The notes: generated by a model not told the origin, from the sequence alone. A stretch of DNA of 64,000 nt from Ardenticatenia bacterium (GCA_030949995.1 JAUZRY010000009.1:6195-70194), one strand, 5' to 3'. Counted from the stretch's first letter, positions 366 through 10,918 are shown. Program-made: numbers and translations.

Positions 366-393
366 TTGCCTTTTGGCCGAAGGGCGCTATACT
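366..393 (+). promoter_or_regulatory. Candidate sigma70-type promoter for the riboswitch operon (TTGCCT-16 nt-TATACT)
   Basis: TTGCCT at 366-371 and TATACT at 388-393, directly upstream of the riboswitch aptamer. Confidence 0.45.
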
Positions 394-397
394 TATG

Positions 398-600
398 GCC
401 CAACCGAACAGTCGGACGAGGCCCAGCCGTGGTTCGGGGAAGTCCGGTGAGAGTCCGGCGCTGTCCCGCAACTGTGATGGTGGCGTTGACTGCCTAAGCC
501 AGGTCGCCGGCCACGGTTGTGCTCCGGCACCCCTTCGCGGAAAGGGAGCGGAGCGTTTGCCGCACTGCTGCCTTCCTGTGAGCGCCGGGGAGGCTTTTTC
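398..600 (+). promoter_or_regulatory. Cobalamin (B12) riboswitch with terminator-type expression platform
   Basis: Conserved core GGGGAAGTCCGGTGAGAGTCCGGCGCTGTCCCGCAACTGTGATGG at 435-480. B12-box-like AAGCCAGGTCGCCGGCC at 496-513. Downstream hairpin GCCTTCC(570-576)/GGGAGGC(588-594) followed by T5 at 595-599. The element precedes corrinoid-uptake-type genes. Confidence 0.8.
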
Positions 601-669
601 ATTTGTCCCCGGGGCGGCGATGGGGAAGGCTTTTTGTTTGAGGTCAGCCTGAATAAGGAGGTGATCACG

Positions 670-1749
670 ATGGGACGCAGTGTGCGCTTGGTAGCACTTC
701 TCATGGTGGTGATGGCCTGGTGGGCGCTGCCCGTCTGGGCGCAGGGCGCTGATTTGAGCCGGGCCGTGACGTGGGTGAAGGCCCAACAACAACCTGATGG
801 CGGCTTCAGCGATGGCTTCAGTGAGGGGAGCAACGTGGGCGCCACGGTCGACGCCGTCTTCGCGGCTGTGGCTGTGGGAGAAGATGTGAGCCAATGGGGA
901 TCGCCCTCCCCCCTTGACTTTCTCGCCTCCCAAGCCGGCCGACTGGAACGCACCGGAGAGATCGCCAAGACGATCTTGGTGGCCGTGGCCACAGGTCAGG
1001 ATCCCACGACTTTTGGAGACGTTGACTTGGTTGCCGCCCTGCTGGCCCGCTACGATGAGCGCACCGGCCGGTTCGAGGGTCTGGTGACCGACCACGCTTT
1101 TGCCATGCTGGCCCTCAAAAATGCCGGCCAGCCCGTGCCCTCCGGCGCCGCGGAGGCCCTCAAAGCACTGCAGGCCGATGGTGGCGGCTGGGCCTTTGAC
1201 GGCTCCAGCCAGCCCGACACCAACACCACGGCCTTGGCCATCCAAGCCCTGGTGGCGGCCGGGGAGCCGGCCTCGGGTGAAGCCATGACTCGGGCCCTGG
1301 ACTTCCTGCGCGCCCAGCAGAACGAGGACGGGGGGTTCCCCTACCAGAAACCGAGTGACTTTGGCACCGAGACGGACGCCAACAGCACCGCTTGGGCGAT
1401 CCAGGGACTCGTGGCAGCCGGCCAGTCCCTGGACGATTGGAACGCGCCCCACCAGGCGCTGGCTGCCCTTCAGGCTGAGAGCGGTGCGTTTCAGTGGAAG
1501 GCGATTGTCCCCGGTGACAATTTCCTCGCCACGGCGCAGGCGGTGCCGGCACTGGCCGGCGTGACCTTTGTGGAGGTGCCAACAGTATCGGCAGCCACTC
1601 CGCCCCAGGTGACACCAGCGCCCCAGACGCTGCCCACAACGGGAACCGAGAACACAGCAGCGTGGCCTGTGGCAGTGCTTGTCGGTGTGGGAGCGGTCTT
1701 ACTCCTGGTGGGCCTGGCTGTGAGCCGGCGCGGGCTTGTGGGACGTTGA
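670..1749 (+). CDS. Secreted LPXTG-anchored protein with prenyltransferase/terpene-cyclase-like alpha/alpha-toroid repeats
   Basis: AAGGAGGTG RBS, then the ATG at 670. Signal peptide MGRSVRLVALLMVVMAWWALPVWAQG. Repeats QQQPDGGFSDGF, LQADGGGWAFDG, QQNEDGGFPYQK and LQAESGAFQWK. C-terminal LPTTG followed by a hydrophobic helix and a basic tail (SRRGLVGR). Confidence 0.8.
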   Translation: MGRSVRLVALLMVVMAWWALPVWAQGADLSRAVTWVKAQQQPDGGFSDGFSEGSNVGATVDAVFAAVAVGEDVSQWGSPSPLDFLASQAGRLERTGEIAKTILVAVATGQDPTTFGDVDLVAALLARYDERTGRFEGLVTDHAFAMLALKNAGQPVPSGAAEALKALQADGGGWAFDGSSQPDTNTTALAIQALVAAGEPASGEAMTRALDFLRAQQNEDGGFPYQKPSDFGTETDANSTAWAIQGLVAAGQSLDDWNAPHQALAALQAESGAFQWKAIVPGDNFLATAQAVPALAGVTFVEVPTVSAATPPQVTPAPQTLPTTGTENTAAWPVAVLVGVGAVLLLVGLAVSRRGLVGR

Positions 1750-1762
1750 GGACGGAGGCCTC

Positions 1763-2568
1763 ATGAGGAAATTGCCGGGCCGGTGGCTGTGGGCCGCCGT
1801 ATTTGCACTCGTTCTCGTGCTGGCCCCTCGGGACACCAGGGGGCCAGCAACAGCTCAGGAGCCCAACCGGGCCGGTGTCGTCGTCCAGCACGGTGACGGC
1901 ACCGTGCGTGCGGCCTGTGTGCTTTTCCCGGAGCCCGAGATCAGCGGTGCCGAACTGCTCCGGCGGAGTGGCCTGGACGTGGTGGTGGCCGTAGAGGAGG
2001 GACTCATGGTCTGCTAATAGCGGGCGAGGGCTGTCAGTATCCCGAGGAACCCTGCTTTTGCCGGTGTCAGGGGCAAGGGCCGTGTACCTACTGGTCCTAC
2101 TGGCACCTCGATCCCCAACGGGGAACGTGGGTCTACAGTTCCGTCGGAGCCGGTGCCTACCGGGTGCGCGACGGGGACGTTGACGGATGGCGGTGGGGCA
2201 GCGGCACCCCGAGCCGGGCGGCCGCACCCCCGGTCGTCACCTTCGAGGACGTGTGCGGGGAGGAGAATCCGCCCACGGCCACGGAGGTGCGCCTGCCCAC
2301 GGCCACACCGTCCCCGCGGGGGGGATTACAGGTGATGCCCAGCGTTACTCCCGAGCCCCCGCTGCCGGCCACCACAGGGCCACGCTTCACGCCGACGCCG
2401 GCCCCCACGCCGACGCCCGCCGAGCGTGAACTGGCCACGGGTGCCCGCCCCGGGGGGAACAATGGGCCGAACCTGGTTGACTATCTCCTCTTCGCGGCCA
2501 TCGGCGCGTTTCTTATTGTGGGGGCCTTCGTAACCGCAAGGCGCAGGAGACGGCGGTGGAAGGCGTGA
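1763..2568 (+). CDS. DUF4430-like (transcobalamin beta-domain-like) protein with Pro/Thr linker and C-terminal membrane anchor; apparent frameshift near 2012-2016
   Basis: GGAGG RBS and ATG at 1763. Signal/anchor MRKLPGRWLWAAVFALVLVLA. The protein continues in another frame as LIAGEGCQYPEEPCFCRCQGQGPCTYWSYWHLDPQRGTWVYSSVGAGAYRVRDGDVDGWRWG. It then has a PT-rich stretch, the TM segment LLFAAIGAFLIVGAFV and an RRRRRR tail. It joins ORFs 1736..2017 and 2164..2568. Confidence 0.65.
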
Positions 2569-3602
2569 GATTTCACCCGTTGGCCTGGCTCACGTGGTGG
2601 GGGGGCGGCCACACTGGCCGTGTTGCTGACCCGCAATCCCCTCTACTTGAGCCTGACCCTGCTGGCAGCTCTCTGGGTGCGGGTCGCCTTGGACAGCCGC
2701 CGCTCGCCAGGACCATGGCGTTGGAGCGTTCGGTGGGGATGGCTCTTCCTGCTGTTGGCCGGTCTCTTCAACGGGCTCACTATTCACTACGGCTCCACTG
2801 TGCTCTTCCGGCTGCCCCCTCATGGCCCCTTGTGGGGGGCAACGTGACTCTCGAGGCAGTGACATTCGGGCTTGTCACCGGGCTGAACTTGCTGGTGTTG
2901 TTGCTCCTCTTCGAGGCCTTCGGTGCCGGCGTTGACTACGCGGCCCTGCTGCGCTTCGTGCCCGGCTTTCTCTTCCGTGCGGGCCTGGTGACGAGCATCG
3001 CGCTCACTTTCGTGCCCCAAACCCTGCGCACCTTCCGCGACGTGCGCGAGGCCCAAATGATCCGCGGCCACCGTTTCCACTCATGGCGTGATCTGGCCCC
3101 CCTCATGGTGCCCGTGGTCGTGATCGGCTTGGAGCGCTCCGTCCAGTTGGCCGAAGCCATGGAGAGCCGCGGGTTTGGCGGGCCCACCGGCGCCACTGAT
3201 CGCCTGAAACCCCGACTGGCCCTCCTGCTGGGCATCGCATCCCTGTTGTTAGGGCTGGGGCTGCGCTCGTTGTGGGACCGCCCCTGGCCGGTGGCCGGCT
3301 TGGTGTTGGCTGGCGGTAGCCTGTTGGTTTGGGGGTTCAGGCACATGGGGCGCCGGGTTCGCCGCACGCGGTATCGCCTCTACTCGTGGACGCGGGCCGA
3401 TGTGGTCTTGGCCGTGGCCGGGGGCGTGCTCGCGGGAAGCGTGCTGGCCGCGCGGCTCTGGGCCCCTGAACAGCTCCTCTACTATCCCTACCCTCGGGTG
3501 ATGTGGCCGGTGTTCTCGCCCTGGCTGGGCGTACTCTTCGCCCTGGTGGCCACCCCGGCCCTCCTGGTCCCGCCGGAGGAGGAACACTTGTGTCCCCCCT
3601 GA
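2565..3602 (+). CDS. ecfT: ECF transporter transmembrane (T) component, CbiQ/EcfT family; two apparent frameshifts in G-runs
   Basis: GTG at 2565 overlaps the upstream stop (GTGA). The reading frame switches at G7 (2599-2605) and returns at G6 (2834-2839). The conserved C-terminal part is TFVPQTLRTFRDVREAQMIRGHRF...ERSVQLAEAMESRGFGG. Confidence 0.75.
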   Translation: MRFHPLAWLTWWGGGHTGRVADPQSPLLEPDPAGSSLGAGRLGQPPLARTMALERSVGMALPAVGRSLQRAHYSLRLHCALPAAPSWPLVGGNVTLEAVTFGLVTGLNLLVLLLLFEAFGAGVDYAALLRFVPGFLFRAGLVTSIALTFVPQTLRTFRDVREAQMIRGHRFHSWRDLAPLMVPVVVIGLERSVQLAEAMESRGFGGPTGATDRLKPRLALLLGIASLLLGLGLRSLWDRPWPVAGLVLAGGSLLVWGFRHMGRRVRRTRYRLYSWTRADVVLAVAGGVLAGSVLAARLWAPEQLLYYPYPRVMWPVFSPWLGVLFALVATPALLVPPEEEHLCPP

Positions 3603-5241
3603 TCACCCTGTCCGGCGTCACGTATGCCTATCCCTTGGCTGAGAGGCCGGTCTTCCGGGACCTCTCCCTTCAAATCGAAGAGGGAGAGTTTCTGCTCGTA
3701 GTGGGGGAGAGCGGGAGCGGCAAGAGCACGTTCTTGCGCCTGCTCAACGGCCTCATTCCGCACTTCTACGGCGGGCTCTTTCGCGGCAACGTGATAGTGG
3801 CCGGCCGCAACACGCGAACGCACGGACCACGTGCGCTCAGCGACGTGGTGGGCGTCGTCTTCCAGGACCCTGAAGCCCAGTTCGTGGTGGAGCGGGGTGG
3901 AGGACGATGTGGTCTTCGGCCTTGAAAACGCCGGTGTCCCGCCCGAGGAGATGCGCGCCCGCGTGGAGGAGGTGTTCAATGCCCTGGAGATCGACCACCT
4001 GCGCCGGCGCCCGCTGGCCACCCTCAGCGGGGGGGAGATGCAGCGCGTGGCCATTGCGGGGGCCCTAGTGCTCAGGCCGCGAGCACTCGTTCTGGACGAG
4101 CCCACCTCTCAGCTTGCTCCCCGGGCGGCTGAGGACCTGTTGGCCCTTCTGGTGCGCCTCAACCGGGAGCTGGGCCTCACCATTGTGCTGGCCGAACACC
4201 GGCTGGAACGAGTGGCCCAATACGCTCACCGGGTCCTCTACGTGCCCGGTCGCGGCAAACCGCCGATCCTGGGCCCGCCCCAAGCGGTATTTCGCCATGT
4301 GTCCCTAGCCCCGCCTGTCGTCCGCCTGGGGCGCCGGCTCTCCGTGGTCGCCTCTGCCCCTCTCCGTCGAGGAGGGACGGACCTTTGCCCGTCGCCTCGT
4401 GGTCAACCTTTCACCGGACGTTTCCGGCCGCCCATACGCAAACGGGCAGGAGCCCGTCGTGACCCTTGAGGGCGTGTGGGCCGCTTACGGATCGCACGTG
4501 GCCCTGCAAGATGTCCACTTGGTGGTCAGGCGCGGGGAATTTGTGGCCCTGGTAGGCGACAACGGCGCGGGCAAGAGCACGCTCGCCCGGCTCCTCGTGG
4601 GCCTGGTGCGCCCGAGCCGGGGACGAGTGTTCGTGGAGGGGGATGATCTGCGTGGTCAGTCGGTCAGAGCAGTCTGCCGTCGTGTGGCCTACTTGCCCCA
4701 GAACCCCTCCGCCCTGCTCTTCGCCGACACGGTGCGCGACGAGCTCCTGGTCACCCTGCGCAATCACGGTCTCCGCCCTGAACGCGCTCCCGTGGCCCCG
4801 GACGACCTGCTCAGGCGGCTTGGGCTGGAGGCTGTGGTCGACATGTACCCCAGAGACCTGAGTGTCGGTCAACGAGAGCGCGTGGCCCTCGGGGCTCTGC
4901 TGGTGACACGTCCGCCGGTGCTCGTGCTGGATGAGCCCACCAGAGGCTTGGACTGGCGCCAGAAGGAAGAGTTGGTGGCCATGTTGAAGGCGTGGCAGGC
5001 CGAGGGGACGACCATCCTCTTCGTGACCCACGACGTGGAATTGGTGGCCCTCGCGGCCGACAGGGTGGTTGTACTGGAGGAGGGGCGTGTTGTGGCCGAT
5101 GGCCCGGTGCGCCCCCTTTTGGGCACCTTGCAGCCCTTTGCCCCTCAGATGGCGCGCCTCTTCGGCCACCCGGAACTGCTGACGGTGGAGGATGTGTTGG
5201 CGGCCGTGCGCCCTGCTGACGAGGAGGTGCAGCGGTGGTGA
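3590..5241 (+). CDS. ECF transporter ATPase, fused duplicated EcfA-EcfA' (CbiO-like); two apparent frameshifts
   Basis: First half: Walker A GESGSGKST, signature LSGGEMQRV and Walker B LVLDEPTSQL. Second half: GDNGAGKST, LSVGQRERV and LVLDEPTRGLD. Frame breaks at G4 (3894-3897) and about 4338-4345. It joins ORFs 3503..3925, 3831..4469 and 4399..5241. Confidence 0.8.
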
Positions 5242-6140
5242 ACGTGCCGGGATCTCGCCCGAGTGAATCACGCGGTGCTCAGGTGGTGGGCCATGCCCTG
5301 CTGACATTGGCCGGCGTCGCCGGCTTGGCCGCGTTCTTTTACCCTTTCTTCTGGCCCCAGATCGCTCAAGTGTCCCGCGCCGAGGCGACTCAGGCCCATG
5401 CCGGTGATGCGCCGCTTCTCTTCACCCTGCTGGTGGTGGCGTCCATCACCGTCGTGGTGGCCGAACTGGAGAGCAGTGCTCTGACCACGCGGAGTGTGGC
5501 CTTGTTGGGCGTGCTGGTGGCGTTCAACGCCGCCCTGCGGCTGGCCGAGACGGTCACGTCGTTCTTGAACTTGGGTGGCTTTTCCCCCGTCTTTGTCCTC
5601 ATCATCCTGGGAGGATACGTCTACGGGAGCCGGTTTGGGTTCCTGGTGGGCGCTCTCAGCCTGCTCGTCGGCGGGATGCTCACCGGCGGGGTTGGCCCGT
5701 GGCTGCCCTTCCAGATGGTGGCTGCCGGGTGGGTGGGGCTCACGTCTGGCTGGCTGCCTGTGCTGCTCCGCTTTCGTCCCACGCGGGTCCGCCTCGTCCG
5801 CCGGCGCGAGGTCGTGGCACTGGCCGCCTTCGGGGGCATGTGGGGGTTCTTGTACGGCTTCCTGATGAACCTCTACTTCTGGCCCTTCGTCTCGGGGGAG
5901 GGCATGTACTGGCGGCCTGGCATGGGATGGCAGGAGACGTTCTCGCGGTATGTGCTCTTCTACGCCGTCACGTCCGTCGCTTGGGACTCGGCCCGCGCCG
6001 TGGGCAACGTGCTCCTCATTGGCCTTCTAGGCGAAGCCCTGTTGAAGGCCCTGCGCCGCTTCCAGCTCCGGTTCTTCCCCCTGCCTCACGGGAATTGGGA
6101 CCCTCCTGCGCCGGACGGACGCCGACTGAGTGGAGGATGA
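5235..6140 (+). CDS. Polytopic membrane protein, ECF substrate-capture (S) component-like
   Basis: GAGGAGG RBS, and the start overlaps the ATPase stop. It has multiple hydrophobic helices and is the last transporter gene of the riboswitch operon. At 301 aa it is larger than typical S components. Confidence 0.55.
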   Translation: MVNVPGSRPSESRGAQVVGHALLTLAGVAGLAAFFYPFFWPQIAQVSRAEATQAHAGDAPLLFTLLVVASITVVVAELESSALTTRSVALLGVLVAFNAALRLAETVTSFLNLGGFSPVFVLIILGGYVYGSRFGFLVGALSLLVGGMLTGGVGPWLPFQMVAAGWVGLTSGWLPVLLRFRPTRVRLVRRREVVALAAFGGMWGFLYGFLMNLYFWPFVSGEGMYWRPGMGWQETFSRYVLFYAVTSVAWDSARAVGNVLLIGLLGEALLKALRRFQLRFFPLPHGNWDPPAPDGRRLSGG

Positions 6141-6183
6141 ACTCGGCTTGTCACGCCGCCCAAAATGGAGTATGCTCCCGTTT

Positions 6184-6849
6184 ATGAAAATAGACTTGCA
6201 CCTCCACACCTTCAGATCGCCTGATAGCTTGACCACCTACGAGCAAGTGATCCGTGCCGTCCAACAGCGTGGCTTGGACGCAGTGGCCGTCACCGACCAT
6301 AACACCATTCGGGGCGCCCTGGAACTCCGTGAAATCGCCCCATTCCCGGTCATTGTGGGAGAGGAGATCCGCACGCAAGAGGGCGAAGTCATAGGTTACT
6401 TCCTCGAAGAGGAAATTCCCCCGGGCTTGGGCCTGGATGAAACGATTGACCGCATACGGGAGCAAGGAGGGTTGGTGGCCATCCCGCACCCCGTGGACCG
6501 GGCGCGCAAGGGGTCCGCACTGGGGTTGGAAGCCACGCTGCGCGTGTTGGACCGGGTGGACTTTGTCGAGGGGTGGAACGCCCGTTGCCTCTTCCTGGAG
6601 GACAACGTGCGAGCCCAAGTGTTGGCCCGCCAACACAACAAGCCGATGACAGCCGGCAGCGATGCCCACGGGTGGCGGGAAATCGGCCTGGCGTACGTGC
6701 AGGTGGACACCTTCGACGCTCCCAGAACCTTCTTGGCTCACATGGCCAAGGCAACCATCACGGGACAGTGGACGCCGTTGCACCTTCGCCTGGCGAGCCC
6801 ATGGGCCAGAGTGATGCGCGCTGTGCTCCGGCGGAGGCCGATGGGGTGA
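6184..6849 (+). CDS. PHP-domain metal-dependent phosphoesterase
   Basis: MKIDLHLHTFRSPDS...AVAVTDHNTIRGA...VAIPHPVD, which are the PHP His/Asp motifs. The start is uncertain; alternatives are 6130 and 6172. Confidence 0.75.
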   Translation: MKIDLHLHTFRSPDSLTTYEQVIRAVQQRGLDAVAVTDHNTIRGALELREIAPFPVIVGEEIRTQEGEVIGYFLEEEIPPGLGLDETIDRIREQGGLVAIPHPVDRARKGSALGLEATLRVLDRVDFVEGWNARCLFLEDNVRAQVLARQHNKPMTAGSDAHGWREIGLAYVQVDTFDAPRTFLAHMAKATITGQWTPLHLRLASPWARVMRAVLRRRPMG

Positions 6850-7488: not shown

Positions 7489-8516
7489 ATGGTGCTTCTC
7501 GCCCTGCTTTTGACCATCTTGGCAGCGGCTGTGCCCTCGTTGCTCTACACGAGCATTGCCTGGTGGCTGGACCGATACGAAAAGGAACCCTGGTGGGTTT
7601 TGGTGCTCACCTTCTTCTGGGGCGCGGTGCCGGCCATCGTGTTGGCGTTGGTGGTGGAAGTGGCCTTTGACATCCCCTTGCGCCTCTTCCTCGTCCCCTC
7701 CCAAGCCGAGTTCTTCGCCTCGATCGTCGTGGCACCGGTAGTGGAAGAGCTCTTCAAGGCCGTCCCCCTGGTGCTCATTTTCTGGCTCTACCGCCAGGAG
7801 TTCGACGGCATCATGGACGGCTTGCTCTACGGAGCGCTGGTGGGCTTCGGCTTCGCCATGACCGAGAACATCTTCTACTTTCTGAGCGCGCTGGTCGAGG
7901 AGGGCGTGGGCTCGTTCCTCTTCCTTGTCTTTCTGCGGGCTATCGTGTTCGGCCTGAACCACGCGCTTTTCAGCTCGGCCTTTGGCTTTGGGCTTGGCTT
8001 GGCCCGCTACGCCCGCACAGACCTGGTGCGCTGGGGGGGCGCCTGTGGCCGGGTTGTTGGCCGGCATCGGGCTGCACATGGTCCACAATGCTTTCGTCTC
8101 CTCGGGTTCGATCCTCTTCTTGGTGAGCCTGGTGAGCGATTGGATGGGCGTGCTCCTCTGGCTTGTGCTGGTGTGGGTGGCCGGCCGCCAGGAGGCCCGC
8201 TTAATCCGAGAGGAATTGGCCGATGAAGTCGGGGAGGGCCTTTTGACACCGCAACAGGCCTTGGCGGCCGGACGGTATCGGGAGCGAGTTGCCGTGAGGT
8301 GGGCGGCCCTCCAGGAGCGGGGCTTTGGGTACGCCCACAAGCTTGGCCGGCTCTACGCGCTGGCGGCCGAGCTGGCCTTTTCGCAAGCGCCAGCTTCGCC
8401 TCCAAGGAGATGCTCACGGCGTTGCCGACGAAATTGTGCGCCTGCGCCAGCGCATCCGCCGGCTCCAAGAGGAGCTGAGAAAAGATGCCCGAGAGCCGAG
8501 CGTGAGAGGCGCGTGA
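7489..8516 (+). CDS. PrsW-family intramembrane metalloprotease; two apparent frameshifts
   Basis: AVPSLLYTSIAWWLDRYEKEPW, VVAPVVEELFKA and GALVGFGFAMTENIFY...GLNHALFSS. Frame breaks at G7 (8033-8039) and T4 (8378-8381). It joins ORFs 7489..8226, part of 7982.. and 8325..8516. Confidence 0.75.
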
Positions 8517-8542
8517 GGGGAAGGAAAGGAGGAAATCCAAAC

Positions 8543-10918
8543 GTGAAGGGACGAATTCGAGGCCTAATAATAGGAGGGGGCATAGTGTGGGGGATGGGGC
8601 TTCTGCTCCTGGCCTTCATTCGTTCCCCTGCTGCGGCAGGAGCCCAGGAAATACGGCCGGCGGAGTTGGTGTCGTCGCTGTCGGCCAAGGCGCTTCAAAG
8701 AGGGCTGAGCACGCCGGAGCTCATTGAGCAGGCCGTGCTCCGCGGTGAAATCAGCCGTGACACGGCCGATCTTTACCTCGCGTATGCCCTCTTCTCCCCC
8801 GAGATGTTGCCGGCCCGTTTCCGCAGCGACGTGCCCTGGGAAGGCACGCTCCCCCTGTGGCAGCTCCAGCAACGCCTGCGCCGTCGGCCCCTTTCCCCTT
8901 TGGGAGCAACGGTCCAACGCCTTGCCGCCGGCGTGTGTGACACTTCTACAACCTCGTTGCCCTCCTCCATCACGAGTGCCAATTTCTTCATCGAGTACGG
9001 CACCATCAGCGGCGGGCTGACGCTGGCTGATTACATCAATGCTCTGGAAACCTCGAGGACGACGTTGGTGAACACGTTTGGCTGGGCAGCCCCTCCCATC
9101 CTGTCCGGCACGCCGGGCAACAAGTACCACGTGCGCATTGATACCTTGGCTCCCGGCCTCTTGGGGTTTGTCTCCACTTCCGGCACCTATGCCGGTTTTG
9201 TGGGGGACAACCCCAACACATCGTGGAATGAGGGGTCGGCGATGGCCAGCTGCATGGTGCTGAGGAACGACTTCAGCGGCTTTCCATCGGCCGCTATCGA
9301 TATCCTCCGGTCCACGGTCGCCCATGAGTTCCACCACGCCATCCAGTTCGGCTACGGTGTGGCGCCCTCAGTGCGGGATTTGGACGGCGTGTTTATGGAG
9401 GCCAGTGCCACGTGGGTCGAAGATGAGGTCTTCGACAGCGCCAATGACAACTACAGCTACTTGTGGCCTGACTTCCAAGTCTGCATGGGGGAATACTACA
9501 CCAGCACGTCAAATGAGTGGTACCCCTACTGGATCGTGCTCCGCGGTCTCACTGAACCCTTCGGCACAGGGGTGGCCGACGGCGGGGAGCAAATTATCCA
9601 GGATTTCTGGGAGTACCTGAGCAAGAAGCAGGGAGGCATGCTCGCGGCCTTGGATCAGGCCCTCAAGAACCGATCATCGACGCTCTCCCTCGGCCCGGCT
9701 TATCACAATGCCGCTATTGCACTGGCCTTTGTCAAGCCCTGTGGGGGCGGGTACACATCGCCATATTGTTTTGAGGAGGCGAGTGGGTACACAGGGGTGG
9801 CCGGTTTCCCGCCGCCAACGGCCGAGCTCTCCTCCCTGCCAGACACGTACAACGGCTTGATCCAGGACGCCTACGCCCTCAACTGGATTACCTTGCCCGT
9901 GGGCAGCGGGGTTTACACCATCACCCTGCAGAACACCTCGGGCGGTGGCCTGATACGGGCCAGTTTCGTGGGTGACACCGGGAGCAGCCTCGACGTGCGC
10001 TCCCTGGGCGTGGCGGCGGCCGGCCAAGCGATTCAGGAACGCAATGTGGACTTGAGCGTGTACACTGGCGCGGCCGTGGTGATCACCAACGAGGCCCAGC
10101 CGTCCGACAACCCAGCAAGCTGTACGGCCCGTTCCTACACGTTGGCGGTCACCCAGGGGGCGCCCTCATTGCCGTCTCCTTCGTCGCGCTCAGTCTTCTT
10201 GCCCTTAATCACGCGATCAGGGCCGGGCGGTATCTTGGGACGCGTCACCGTGGGCGGCTCGCCGGCTGGCAACGTGCAGCTTGAATTGCGCTTCTACGAT
10301 GGCACCGGGTGGTCCACGCTACAGACCACGAGCACGGCGGCCGATGGCACCTTCGCCTTCACGGGAGTGCCCTCCTTGGGCAGCGGCCAGGAGTATTACG
10401 TGCGTTACGTGAATCCCAGCGCGGGGGACTCCCAAGGCCGGCTCTCCACTTGGTCTTCCCGCTCCATTACTGCCTACACGGCCGGCGAGACGGTGAACTT
10501 GGGCACCTTCGACATCGCCGACATCACACTGGTCTCACCACCCCACGACACGACGGCCACCTTGCCCCAAACGTTCCAGTGGAACCCTCGGCCTGCCACG
10601 ACGAACGACAGCTACGGCATCCTCTTCTTCGACCTGACTACCAACCAGATTCTCGCCTTGGAACCCACCGTGGGCTACCAGAACTCCTACATGCTGAATG
10701 CCCTGCCCGCGGCGCTCTCCTACGGGACAGCCTACGGGTGGACGGTCTACGTCGAGTGGCCGGACGGCAGCGTTGGGGCAGCGTACTGGGCCTATCGTAT
10801 CACCTTCTCATCCGCCACCCCGCGCCAACAGCGGCGCCCGAGCACCACGCCTGGCACAGATCAAGGCGTGCTGCGCCGCGTGCCGGCGGCCGACGTGTGG
10901 CCGGGAAGGGGAAAGTGA
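8543..10918 (+). CDS. Large secreted HExxH zinc metalloprotease with C-terminal carboxypeptidase-regulatory-like beta-sandwich domain
   Basis: AAGGAGG RBS and GTG at 8543. N-terminal anchor IIGGGIVWGMGLLLLAFI. Active-site-like TVAHEFHHAIQFGYG. C-terminal GILGRVTVGGSPAGNVQLELRFYDGTGWSTLQTTSTAADGTFAFTGVP. Confidence 0.7.
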   Translation: MKGRIRGLIIGGGIVWGMGLLLLAFIRSPAAAGAQEIRPAELVSSLSAKALQRGLSTPELIEQAVLRGEISRDTADLYLAYALFSPEMLPARFRSDVPWEGTLPLWQLQQRLRRRPLSPLGATVQRLAAGVCDTSTTSLPSSITSANFFIEYGTISGGLTLADYINALETSRTTLVNTFGWAAPPILSGTPGNKYHVRIDTLAPGLLGFVSTSGTYAGFVGDNPNTSWNEGSAMASCMVLRNDFSGFPSAAIDILRSTVAHEFHHAIQFGYGVAPSVRDLDGVFMEASATWVEDEVFDSANDNYSYLWPDFQVCMGEYYTSTSNEWYPYWIVLRGLTEPFGTGVADGGEQIIQDFWEYLSKKQGGMLAALDQALKNRSSTLSLGPAYHNAAIALAFVKPCGGGYTSPYCFEEASGYTGVAGFPPPTAELSSLPDTYNGLIQDAYALNWITLPVGSGVYTITLQNTSGGGLIRASFVGDTGSSLDVRSLGVAAAGQAIQERNVDLSVYTGAAVVITNEAQPSDNPASCTARSYTLAVTQGAPSLPSPSSRSVFLPLITRSGPGGILGRVTVGGSPAGNVQLELRFYDGTGWSTLQTTSTAADGTFAFTGVPSLGSGQEYYVRYVNPSAGDSQGRLSTWSSRSITAYTAGETVNLGTFDIADITLVSPPHDTTATLPQTFQWNPRPATTNDSYGILFFDLTTNQILALEPTVGYQNSYMLNALPAALSYGTAYGWTVYVEWPDGSVGAAYWAYRITFSSATPRQQRRPSTTPGTDQGVLRRVPAADVWPGRGK

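What the first reader, a model, noticed from the sequence alone, without database searches (positions are those of the whole stretch)
366..6849. Cobalamin-riboswitch operon whose first two genes resemble a wall/membrane-anchored, two-piece transcobalamin-like corrinoid trap feeding a dedicated ECF transporter
Seen in sequence: a B12 riboswitch core (435-513) plus terminator precedes two surface proteins. Gene (i) encodes a signal-peptide protein built of QxxDGG(F/W) alpha/alpha-toroid repeats, ending in LPTTG, a TM helix and a basic tail. Gene (ii) encodes a DUF4430-like protein (YWSYWH...YRVRDGDVDGWRWG) with a Pro/Thr stalk and a C-terminal TM anchor. These are followed by EcfT, a fused EcfA-EcfA', a 301-aa S-like membrane protein and, 43 nt later, a PHP phosphoesterase. 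Established knowledge: mammalian transcobalamin and intrinsic factor consist of an alpha6/alpha6 barrel plus a small beta domain, and DUF4430 is the bacterial homologue of that beta domain. Inference: the two separate surface proteins could together sandwich a corrinoid like a split transcobalamin and hand it to the ECF module. The PHP enzyme might process a phosphorylated corrinoid or lower-ligand intermediate. An LPXTG signal is present, but no sortase gene lies in this window.
Basis: partly seen in the sequence, partly recalled or inferred. Interest (0 to 1): 0.6.

Follow-up and report, generated by a model that had tools for sequence, protein, structure and literature searches.

The report
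B12-riboswitch corrinoid capture and ECF import operon
A vitamin-B12-sensing RNA switch in a Chloroflexota bacterium controls two cell-surface proteins folded like the two halves of the human B12 carrier transcobalamin plus a dedicated ECF importer; this kind of system was predicted in 2007, remains untested biochemically, and is not new.

Summary
An AdoCbl riboswitch (411-558) with a terminator precedes:
- a sortase-type anchored alpha/alpha-toroid protein (670-1749);
- a membrane-tethered small beta-domain protein;
- EcfT, a fused EcfA-A', and a CbrT-like S component.

Four lie at G runs. About a fifth of conserved long genes in this assembly are broken the same way, and a same-genus genome has the genes intact. 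The breaks are therefore probably sequencing errors.

The model of gene ii (intact same-genus ortholog) matches only transcobalamin/intrinsic-factor/haptocorrin beta domains and a DUF4430 structure. It belongs to Pfam PF28005 (SCO2322), not PF14478. Gene i is closest to squalene-hopene-cyclase-type toroids, and 22 of 55 relatives also hit the eukaryotic Cobalamin_bind family.

In 61 relatives the two genes co-occur in 33 and are adjacent in 32. Natural fusions exist, and riboswitches precede 10 of 13 loci.

The PHP gene is an unrelated conserved neighbour.

The concept is published (Burroughs et al. 2007; Lactobacillus sakei Lsa1839/1840), and this scan has flagged it on other DNA more than 350 times. 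Joint sandwiching of the corrinoid is untested. Verdict: new member of a known, uncharacterised kind.

The parts
366..393 (+). sigma-70-like promoter candidate (TTGCCT-16-TATACT)
   Evidence: consensus scan; a consensus match only
411..558 (+). AdoCbl/cobalamin riboswitch aptamer
   Evidence: RF01482 63.6 bits, E 2.3e-9; RF00174 47 bits at window 413-529
570..640 (+). expression platform: intrinsic terminator (hairpin 570-594 plus T run, or extended hairpin 570-630 plus U run 631-640)
655..661 (+). AAGGAGG ribosome-binding site, 8 nt before the ATG of gene i
   Evidence: read directly
670..1749 (+). gene i: secreted single alpha/alpha-toroid protein (359 aa) with LPTTG, TM helix and basic tail (sortase-type anchor); intact
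1763..2017 (+). gene ii, N-terminal part (signal peptide and first half of the beta domain), frame 2; ends in stop codons created by a 1-nt deletion near 2012
2017..2568 (+). gene ii, C-terminal part in frame 1: rest of the Cys-rich transcobalamin-beta-like (PF28005/SCO2322) domain, Pro/Thr stalk, TM anchor, basic tail
2556..3602 (+). EcfT (CbiQ family), with two frame changes at G runs (about 2598-2604 and 2833-2838)
3590..5241 (+). fused EcfA-EcfA' ATPase (start approximate), with two frame changes (about 3893-3896 and 4328-4346)
5235..6140 (+). ECF S component (301 aa), CbrT-like; intact
   Evidence: PF12822 E 4e-11; the only significant PDB hit of its profile is 6fnp_A (CbrT), E 5.5e-4
6184..6849 (+). 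PHP-family phosphoesterase: a neighbour, judged not part of the system

Best explanation
This is a B12-repressed operon for capturing and importing corrinoids in an Ardenticatenaceae (Chloroflexota) bacterium.

Regulation: when AdoCbl is plentiful, the riboswitch forms its terminator and the operon is off.

When the operon is on, the cell displays two surface proteins:
- an alpha/alpha-toroid protein, probably linked to the wall by sortase through LPTTG;
- a small Cys-rich beta-grasp protein of the transcobalamin-beta/DUF4430 superfamily, held on a Pro/Thr stalk by a C-terminal membrane helix.

These proteins capture cobalamin or cobinamide outside the cell and pass it to a dedicated ECF importer, made of a CbrT-like S component, EcfT and a fused EcfA-A'.

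Shown here: the riboswitch, the folds, the anchoring signals, the ECF parts, the conserved gene order, and natural fusions of the two domains.

Inferred: corrinoid binding, hand-over to the S component, and (about 0.4-0.5, given the function) that the two proteins close on one ligand as the two domains of transcobalamin do.

The five frame breaks in the deposited sequence are most likely sequencing errors.
For: - Riboswitch and terminator.
- Gene ii ortholog model has pLDDT above 90 over residues 41-170. Its top 19 Foldseek PDB hits are all transcobalamin, haptocorrin or intrinsic-factor beta domains, or the DUF4430 structure 3u7z (5np4 E 2.7e-5, TMt 0.61; 3u7z TMt 0.73).
- hhalign against canonical DUF4430: 91.8% probability, E 7e-7.
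- Gene i model has pLDDT 93 and an alpha/alpha-toroid fold. Transcobalamin is among its hits at E 1.5e-5.
- 22 of 55 gene i family members hit Pfam Cobalamin_bind; best E 3e-9.
- Among 61 relatives, gene i is in 35 and the gene ii domain in 33. All 33 have both, and the genes are adjacent in 32.
- A fused beta-alpha-alpha protein, P0243, exists, as do fused ORFs in several genomes.
- Cbl riboswitches precede 10 of 13 related loci.
- The Ardenticatena operons also hold CobS and CobU.
- The S-component profile hits CbrT, 6fnp_A.
- ECF-CbrT transports cobalamin and cobinamide (PMC5997447).
- The same prediction was made for Gram-positive bacteria in PMC1796856.
- Frame breaks: four of five lie at G runs. 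26 of 127 conserved long ORFs are broken genome-wide. G002 has gene ii and EcfA-A' intact.
Against: - No binding or transport data exist for any member of this family.
- Gene i is structurally closer to squalene-hopene-cyclase and prenyltransferase toroids (Z 22-26) than to transcobalamin, which is outside the top 50 entries by Z. Its own Cobalamin_bind score, 23.2 bits, is below Pfam's cut-off of 25.
- Gene ii gives no hit to PF14478 or to any solved structure by sequence.
- The genome has de novo cobalamin genes: CbiC, and CobN behind a second riboswitch. Uptake is therefore not forced by auxotrophy.
- The homologous Lactobacillus sakei operon was linked to heme rather than B12.
- Five frame breaks in 3.5 kb is denser than the genome-wide estimate of 0.22 per kb. 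That estimate is a lower bound.
Confidence: 0.75

Rival explanations
1. The operon has the same overall function, but there is no joint sandwich. The beta-domain protein alone is the corrinoid binder. The toroid protein acts separately: as a wall-bound first receptor in a relay, as a binder of another corrinoid form, or as a scaffold.
For: The toroid is closest to non-B12 toroids. The two proteins are anchored differently, one by LPXTG and one by a membrane helix on a long stalk. Many related loci carry a second stand-alone beta-domain gene next to a fused beta-alpha protein. Own knowledge: isolated beta fragments of intrinsic factor bind cobalamin by themselves.
Against: The two domains are fused in one chain in several genomes and are adjacent in 32 of 33. 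In transcobalamin both folds close on one ligand (PMC1796856). 22 of 55 toroid relatives hit Cobalamin_bind.
Confidence: 0.3
2. The ligand is another tetrapyrrole such as heme, as proposed for the Lactobacillus sakei lsa1836-1840 operon. That operon also has separate transcobalamin-alpha-like and beta-like proteins with an ECF module.
For: bioRxiv 10.1101/864751 links that operon to heme uptake and models Lsa1839/1840 as a heterodimer.
Against: Here the operon sits behind an AdoCbl riboswitch, as do 10 of 13 related loci. Relatives place CobS and CobU inside the operon. The S component's only significant solved relative is the B12-specific CbrT.
Confidence: 0.05
3. The operon is decaying in this organism. 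The five frame breaks are real mutations, and gene ii, EcfT and EcfA-A' are pseudogenes.
For: Five breaks in 3.5 kb, against about 0.22 per kb genome-wide. The gene ii break is not at a homopolymer. The genome has de novo B12 genes, so uptake could be dispensable.
Against: Four of five breaks lie at runs of 4-7 G. About 20% of conserved long genes, including ones 80% identical to Ardenticatena, are broken the same way, and close pairs of breaks escape that count. Apart from the breaks, the coding sequence is well conserved. The same-genus genome G002 has the genes intact.
Confidence: 0.1
4. Gene i is an enzyme, a class II terpene cyclase or prenyltransferase, and is unrelated to B12.
For: Its best sequence and structure matches are squalene-hopene cyclases and drimenyl diphosphate synthase.
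Against: It is a secreted, surface-anchored single toroid with no DxDD motif (read directly). It is riboswitch-controlled and always paired with the beta-domain gene and an ECF importer.
Confidence: 0.02

Closest known systems
Animal transcobalamin, intrinsic factor and haptocorrin (PDB 2bb5, 2bb6, 2pmv, 4kki, 5np4)
   Same: The same two folds: an alpha/alpha toroid and a small beta-grasp domain. The beta domain is the best structural match of gene ii. The toroid family gives weak hits to Cobalamin_bind.
   Different: Here the two domains are separate, surface-anchored polypeptides. The beta domain carries a Cys-rich insert with eight conserved Cys. The toroid is closer to terpene-cyclase toroids. 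Binding is untested.
Predicted bacterial transcobalamin-like SLBB / alpha-alpha-toroid B12-scavenging surface proteins (Burroughs, Balaji, Iyer, Aravind 2007, PMC1796856)
   Same: Signal peptide, Gram-positive-type anchor, SLBB plus toroid, operon with a CbiO-like ATPase and a CbiQ-like membrane protein, and a predicted role in scavenging B12 or its precursors.
   Different: That paper described low-GC Gram-positives, planctomycetes and euryarchaea, mostly with fused proteins, in organisms usually lacking B12 synthesis. This case is in Chloroflexota, with the PF28005 branch of the domain, separate genes, and a genome that has CbiC and CobN.
Lactobacillus sakei lsa1836-1840 ECF-like operon (bioRxiv 10.1101/864751)
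   Same: S, A, T components plus two separate proteins homologous to the transcobalamin beta and alpha parts, modelled as a heterodimer. This is the 'two-piece transcobalamin' idea already in print.
   Different: That operon was tied experimentally to heme. The paper mentions no B12 riboswitch in the passages read. The phylum is different.
ECF-CbrT of Lactobacillus delbrueckii (PDB 6FNP; PMC5997447)
   Same: An ECF importer for cobalamin and cobinamide. CbrT is the only significant solved relative of the S component here.
   Different: CbrT (182 aa) uses a shared ECF module and needs no extracellular binder. Here the S component is 301 aa, the ECF module is dedicated with fused ATPases, and two surface proteins are co-encoded.
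SCO2321 / SCO2322 families (NCBIfam NF053823, NF040672; Pfam PF28005 'SCO2322')
   Same: Gene i hits SCO2321_fam (E 1e-24) and gene ii orthologs hit SCO2322_fam (E 2e-8). The orthologs carry PF28005. The family occurs in Chloroflexota and Actinomycetota.
   Different: Scores are far below the NCBIfam cut-offs (86.8 vs 300; about 35-40 vs 85). These are therefore relatives of the actinobacterial equivalogs, not members. No paper in the library discusses those genes' function.

Membership tests
Cobalamin riboswitch (Rfam clan CL00101: RF01482 AdoCbl, RF00174 Cobalamin) | Covariance-model score above the curated gathering score | tested here: met
   RF01482 63.6 bits vs 50; RF00174 47 bits vs 31.5
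Cobalamin riboswitch (Rfam clan CL00101) | Expression platform able to switch gene expression (terminator or RBS sequestration) | tested here: met
   Terminator hairpin 570-594/630 with a U run, upstream of the RBS. The switching itself was not tested.
Transcobalamin / intrinsic factor / haptocorrin (Pfam PF01122 Cobalamin_bind) | Alpha/alpha-toroid domain recognised by PF01122 above its cut-off | tested here: not met
   Gene i scores 23.2 bits vs cut-off 25, E 3.8e-5. 22 of 55 relatives match at E<=1e-3. The toroid fold is shared, but SHC-type toroids are closer.
Transcobalamin / intrinsic factor / haptocorrin | C-terminal beta-grasp (SLBB) domain of the transcobalamin type | tested here: met
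   The Foldseek top 19 PDB hits of the gene ii ortholog model are all this domain or DUF4430 3u7z.
Transcobalamin / intrinsic factor / haptocorrin | Both domains in one soluble polypeptide, alpha then beta | tested here: not met
   Two separate anchored genes here. Natural bacterial fusions have the order beta-alpha-alpha.
Transcobalamin / intrinsic factor / haptocorrin | High-affinity binding of one cobalamin between the two domains | not testable with these tools
   No ligand model for cobalamin was available. Needs biochemistry.
DUF4430 (Pfam PF14478) | HMM match above the gathering score | tested here: not met
   No hit in the window pieces, the intact orthologs or the own genome. Related at profile level (hhalign 91.8%) and at fold level.
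SCO2322 family (Pfam PF28005) | HMM match (precomputed Pfam 38 hits) | tested here: met
   The G002 ortholog P0001 and nearly all homologs carry PF28005. The model is not in the local Pfam copy, so the window's broken gene was not scored directly.
NCBIfam SCO2321_fam / SCO2322_fam equivalogs | Score above the curated cut-off | tested here: not met
   86.8 vs 300 bits; 34.6-40.3 vs 85 bits
Dedicated (group I) ECF transporter | EcfT, two ATPase domains and an S component encoded together | tested here: met
   PF02361, two ABC_tran domains, PF12822. The ortholog hits TIGR04520 and TIGR04521. The order is conserved in relatives.
CbrT (B12-specific S component) | Sequence relationship to L. delbrueckii CbrT (6FNP chain A) | tested here: inconclusive
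   A four-sequence profile hits 6fnp_A at E 5.5e-4 over about 95 residues. It is the only significant hit. A single sequence gives nothing significant.
Predicted bacterial transcobalamin-like SLBB B12-scavenging systems (PMC1796856) | Secreted/anchored SLBB protein plus alpha/alpha toroid in an operon with a CbiO-like ATPase and a CbiQ-like protein | tested here: met
Sortase substrate | LPXTG, then a hydrophobic helix and a basic tail; a sortase in the genome | tested here: met
   Gene i ends with LPTTG, a TM helix and RRGLVGR. The motif is conserved in the family (P322 nearly invariant, G325 invariant). Sortase genes lie on C78, C53 and C104. Gene ii has no LPXTG.
Class II terpene cyclase | DxDD catalytic motif, cytoplasmic or membrane-associated enzyme | tested here: not met
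   No DxDD in the 359-aa sequence; it has a signal peptide and a surface anchor (read).

The most novel reading that the evidence does not exclude
The wall-anchored toroid and the membrane-tethered, stalked beta domain are a ligand-induced heterodimer. Corrinoid captured in the wall layer by one partner recruits the other, and the closed complex delivers the ligand to the CbrT-like S component. This would be a bacterial two-piece transcobalamin working as a relay, comparable to the sortase-anchored heme relays of Gram-positive bacteria. It would also assign the widespread SCO2321/SCO2322 gene pairs of Chloroflexota and Actinomycetota to B12 uptake.
Probability: 0.3. Interest if true: 0.6.

Novelty: new member of a known kind. 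Interest (0 to 1): 0.33.

Why it matters
ECF vitamin importers are thought to work without extracellular binding proteins. A conserved, riboswitch-controlled pair of transcobalamin-like surface proteins next to an ECF-CbrT-type importer would be an exception. It would show how monoderm bacteria compete for corrinoids. It also bears on the proposed bacterial origin of animal B12 carriers, and it would give a function to the uncharacterised SCO2321/SCO2322 families. None of this has been tested biochemically. A cultured relative, Ardenticatena maritima, carries an intact copy.

Tried and rejected
- Complex prediction of the two ectodomains (G002 pair): no verdict (score 0.01, below the mark). 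It counts neither for nor against.
- Public sequencing runs, to check the frame breaks in reads: none was listed.
- Pfam DUF4430 on the window pieces, on intact orthologs and on the own genome: no hit.
- Profile of gene ii against PDB sequences: only low-complexity Pro/Thr matches.
- Single-sequence search of the S component against PDB: nothing significant.
- Paper searches for SCO2321-2324, for 'transcobalamin + ECF transporter + riboswitch', and for corrinoid-uptake/prenyltransferase terms gave nothing on this system.
- PHP enzyme as part of the system: rejected. It is conserved in 53 of 61 relatives regardless of the pair. It lies on other contigs or far away outside the genus. It is adjacent only in G002. 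It has its own promoter-like site.
- Pseudogene reading of the frame breaks: considered and judged unlikely.
- Terpene-cyclase enzyme reading of gene i: rejected (no DxDD; secreted).
Full report
**What is in the sequence**

The window comes from a 3.1-Mb, 110-contig assembly that is 86% complete. Its close relatives are named Ardenticatenaceae / Ardenticatena maritima, Chloroflexota.

The leader holds three elements:
- A sigma-70-like promoter candidate at 366-393.
- A cobalamin riboswitch aptamer at 411-558. RF01482 AdoCbl scores 63.6 bits, E 2.3e-9.
- A GC-rich hairpin at 570-594, extendable to 570-630, followed by U runs. This is a terminator-type expression platform.

An AAGGAGG site at 655-661 precedes the ATG of gene i at 670.

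The genes, in order:
- Gene i (670-1749, 359 aa) is intact. It has a signal peptide, four QxxDGG(F/W)-type repeats, and then LPTTG, a hydrophobic helix and a basic tail.
- The S component (5235-6140) is intact.
- The PHP gene (6184-6849, 43 nt downstream of the S component) is intact.

Gene ii, EcfT and the fused EcfA-A' are not continuous reading frames.
- Gene ii runs in one frame from 1763 to stop codons at 2017, then continues in another frame to 2568. Two same-genus genomes show one extra base near 2012.
- EcfT changes frame at about 2598-2604 and back at about 2833-2838.
- EcfA-A' changes frame at about 3893-3896 and about 4328-4346.

Four of the five sites are runs of 4-7 G.

To judge whether this is decay or data quality, I compared 300 kb of Ardenticatena maritima ORFs with the whole assembly. 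Of 127 conserved long ORFs, 26 show the same kind of in-gene frame change, including genes about 80% identical. This count misses closely spaced pairs of breaks, such as those in EcfT. A sortase gene on another contig is also split.

The same-genus genome G002 has gene ii and EcfA-A' as single open frames.

I therefore read the breaks as sequencing or assembly errors. I allow about 0.1 for real decay, because five breaks in 3.5 kb is denser than the genome-wide lower bound of 0.22 per kb.

**Gene ii**

Pfam DUF4430 (PF14478) does not match the window pieces, the intact orthologs or the genome. A family profile finds no solved structure by sequence.

Homologs carry PF28005. Pfam 38.1 names this family SCO2322; it is found in Chloroflexota and Actinomycetota. 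NCBIfam SCO2322_fam matches weakly, below its cut-off.

I predicted the structure of the intact G002 ortholog from a 51-sequence alignment. The model has pLDDT above 90 over residues 41-170. Its top 19 PDB matches are exclusively the beta domains of transcobalamin, haptocorrin and intrinsic factor, plus the DUF4430 structure 3u7z:
- 5np4: E 2.7e-5, TM 0.61 on the target.
- 3u7z: TM 0.73.
- The next hits drop to E 0.05.

A profile-profile comparison with five canonical DUF4430 domains from other Chloroflexota gives 91.8% probability and E 7e-7.

Gene ii is therefore a divergent member of the transcobalamin-type SLBB superfamily. It has a Cys-rich insert (eight conserved Cys), a Pro/Thr stalk and a C-terminal membrane anchor, and no LPXTG motif.

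**Gene i**

The model is confident (pLDDT 93) and is a single alpha/alpha toroid.
- Its nearest structures are squalene-hopene-cyclase-type and drimenyl-diphosphate-synthase toroids (Z 24-26) and prenyltransferase beta subunits (Z 22).
- Transcobalamin appears in the Foldseek list (4zrp, E 1.5e-5, rank 15) but not among the 50 best entries by Z.
- By sequence, gene i scores 23.2 bits on the eukaryotic Cobalamin_bind family, just under the cut-off of 25. 22 of 55 relatives match that family at E<=1e-3; the best is 3e-9.
- It has no DxDD motif and is secreted, so an enzymatic cyclase role is unlikely.
- The LPXTG-type signal is conserved in the family, and the genome has sortases on three other contigs.

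**Context in relatives**

| Feature (61 genomes of the class, own genome included) | Count |
|---|---|
| Genomes with gene i | 35 |
| Genomes with the gene ii domain | 33 |
| Genomes with both | 33 |
| Genomes with gene ii but not gene i | 0 |
| Genomes where the two are adjacent | 32 of 33 (G009 has them 42 kb apart) |

One of the 61 genomes, G008, is unpublished.

Several genomes encode the two domains in one ORF, in the order beta-alpha(-alpha). A database protein, P0243, is a signal peptide, a gene-ii-like domain and two toroids.

A cobalamin riboswitch precedes gene i in 10 of 13 related loci.

The order gene i, gene ii, EcfT, EcfA-A', S component is conserved. In the two Ardenticatena genomes, CobS, a xylose-isomerase-like TIM-barrel gene and CobU sit between the ATPase and the S component.

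A four-sequence profile of the S component has one significant solved relative: CbrT of the B12 importer ECF-CbrT (6fnp_A, E 5.5e-4). ECF-CbrT transports cobalamin and cobinamide (PMC5997447).

**The PHP gene**

- It is present in 53 of 61 relatives, including many that lack the pair.
- Outside the genus it lies on other contigs or megabases away (G010, G011, G012, G006, G028). It follows the S component only in G002.
- A promoter-like site lies at 6148-6176, just upstream of its start.

I do not count it as part of the system.

**Mechanism**

Shown here: B12-responsive control, the two folds, the anchoring signals, a complete dedicated ECF importer, and tight genomic coupling that includes fusions.

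Inferred: the surface proteins bind corrinoids and feed the S component.

Whether they close on one ligand like the two domains of transcobalamin is open. I put it at about 0.4-0.5, given the function.

The different anchors, one in the wall and one on a membrane helix with a stalk, would also fit a relay.

The organism has CbiC, CobU, CobS, and a second riboswitch in front of a CobN-like gene. Uptake therefore supplements synthesis rather than replacing it.

**Comparison with what is known**

- Burroughs, Balaji, Iyer and Aravind (2007, PMC1796856) defined the transcobalamin-like SLBB clade. They noted its fusions to alpha/alpha toroids, its signal peptides and Gram-positive anchors, and its operons with CbiO/CbiQ-like genes. 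They predicted scavenging of B12 or its precursors.
- A Lactobacillus sakei study (bioRxiv 10.1101/864751) describes an ECF operon with separate transcobalamin-beta-like and alpha-like proteins, modelled as a heterodimer. It links that operon to heme.
- Earlier reports of this scan describe the same layout in many other genomes. From them I took the leads to these papers, and I then read the papers myself.

The present locus is a further member of this predicted, biochemically untested kind. Its particulars are the Chloroflexota host, the PF28005 branch of the beta domain, separate and differently anchored genes, and a long CbrT-like S component.

**Verdict**

The PHP link is rejected. Interest is moderate to low.

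Noticed in passing
whole assembly G000; e.g. window 2598-2604, 2833-2838, 3893-3896, 4328-4331: The assembly carries frequent single-base frame breaks, mostly at G runs. 26 of 127 conserved long ORFs are split compared with Ardenticatena maritima. Gene calls from this genome will be fragmented.
   Followed up: yes
window 7489-8226 and 7982-10918: A PrsW-like membrane protease ORF appears to continue in another frame into the start of a 978-aa ORF. This is probably another frame break.
   Followed up: no
G000 contig C80:3167-3317 (locus L044): The genome's second cobalamin riboswitch (60 bits) lies upstream of a CobN/Mg-chelatase-like gene. CbiC and CobU lie on C47 and CobS on C32, so de novo or late-pathway B12 genes are present.
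   Followed up: partly
L016:6079-7074 (G012) and the equivalent gene in L017 (G011): In the Ardenticatena operons a xylose-isomerase-like TIM-barrel protein (PF01261) sits between CobS and CobU, inside the riboswitch-controlled uptake operon. Its role in corrinoid salvage is unknown.
   Followed up: no
P0243; also G003:C621, G004:C14, G018:C216, G023:C107, G040:C56, G056:C323: Natural fusions occur in the order beta domain, then one to three toroids. They are often followed by a second stand-alone beta-domain gene.
   Followed up: partly
G009:C19 (locus L020): This is the one relative in which gene i is followed by an aldehyde dehydrogenase. Its gene ii lies 42 kb away and no riboswitch was detected.
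   Followed up: no
window 6148-6176: A promoter-like site (TTGTCA-17-TATGCT) lies in the 43-nt gap region just before the PHP gene. It suggests separate transcription.
   Followed up: no
L014:2926-3021: A tRNA-Sec gene lies next to the cobalamin riboswitch of the related locus in G041.
   Followed up: no
phylum sample: Canonical DUF4430 (PF14478) was found in only 5 of 201 Chloroflexota genomes sampled, all small (1.4-2.0 Mb). The PF28005 form is common in the window's class.
   Followed up: partly
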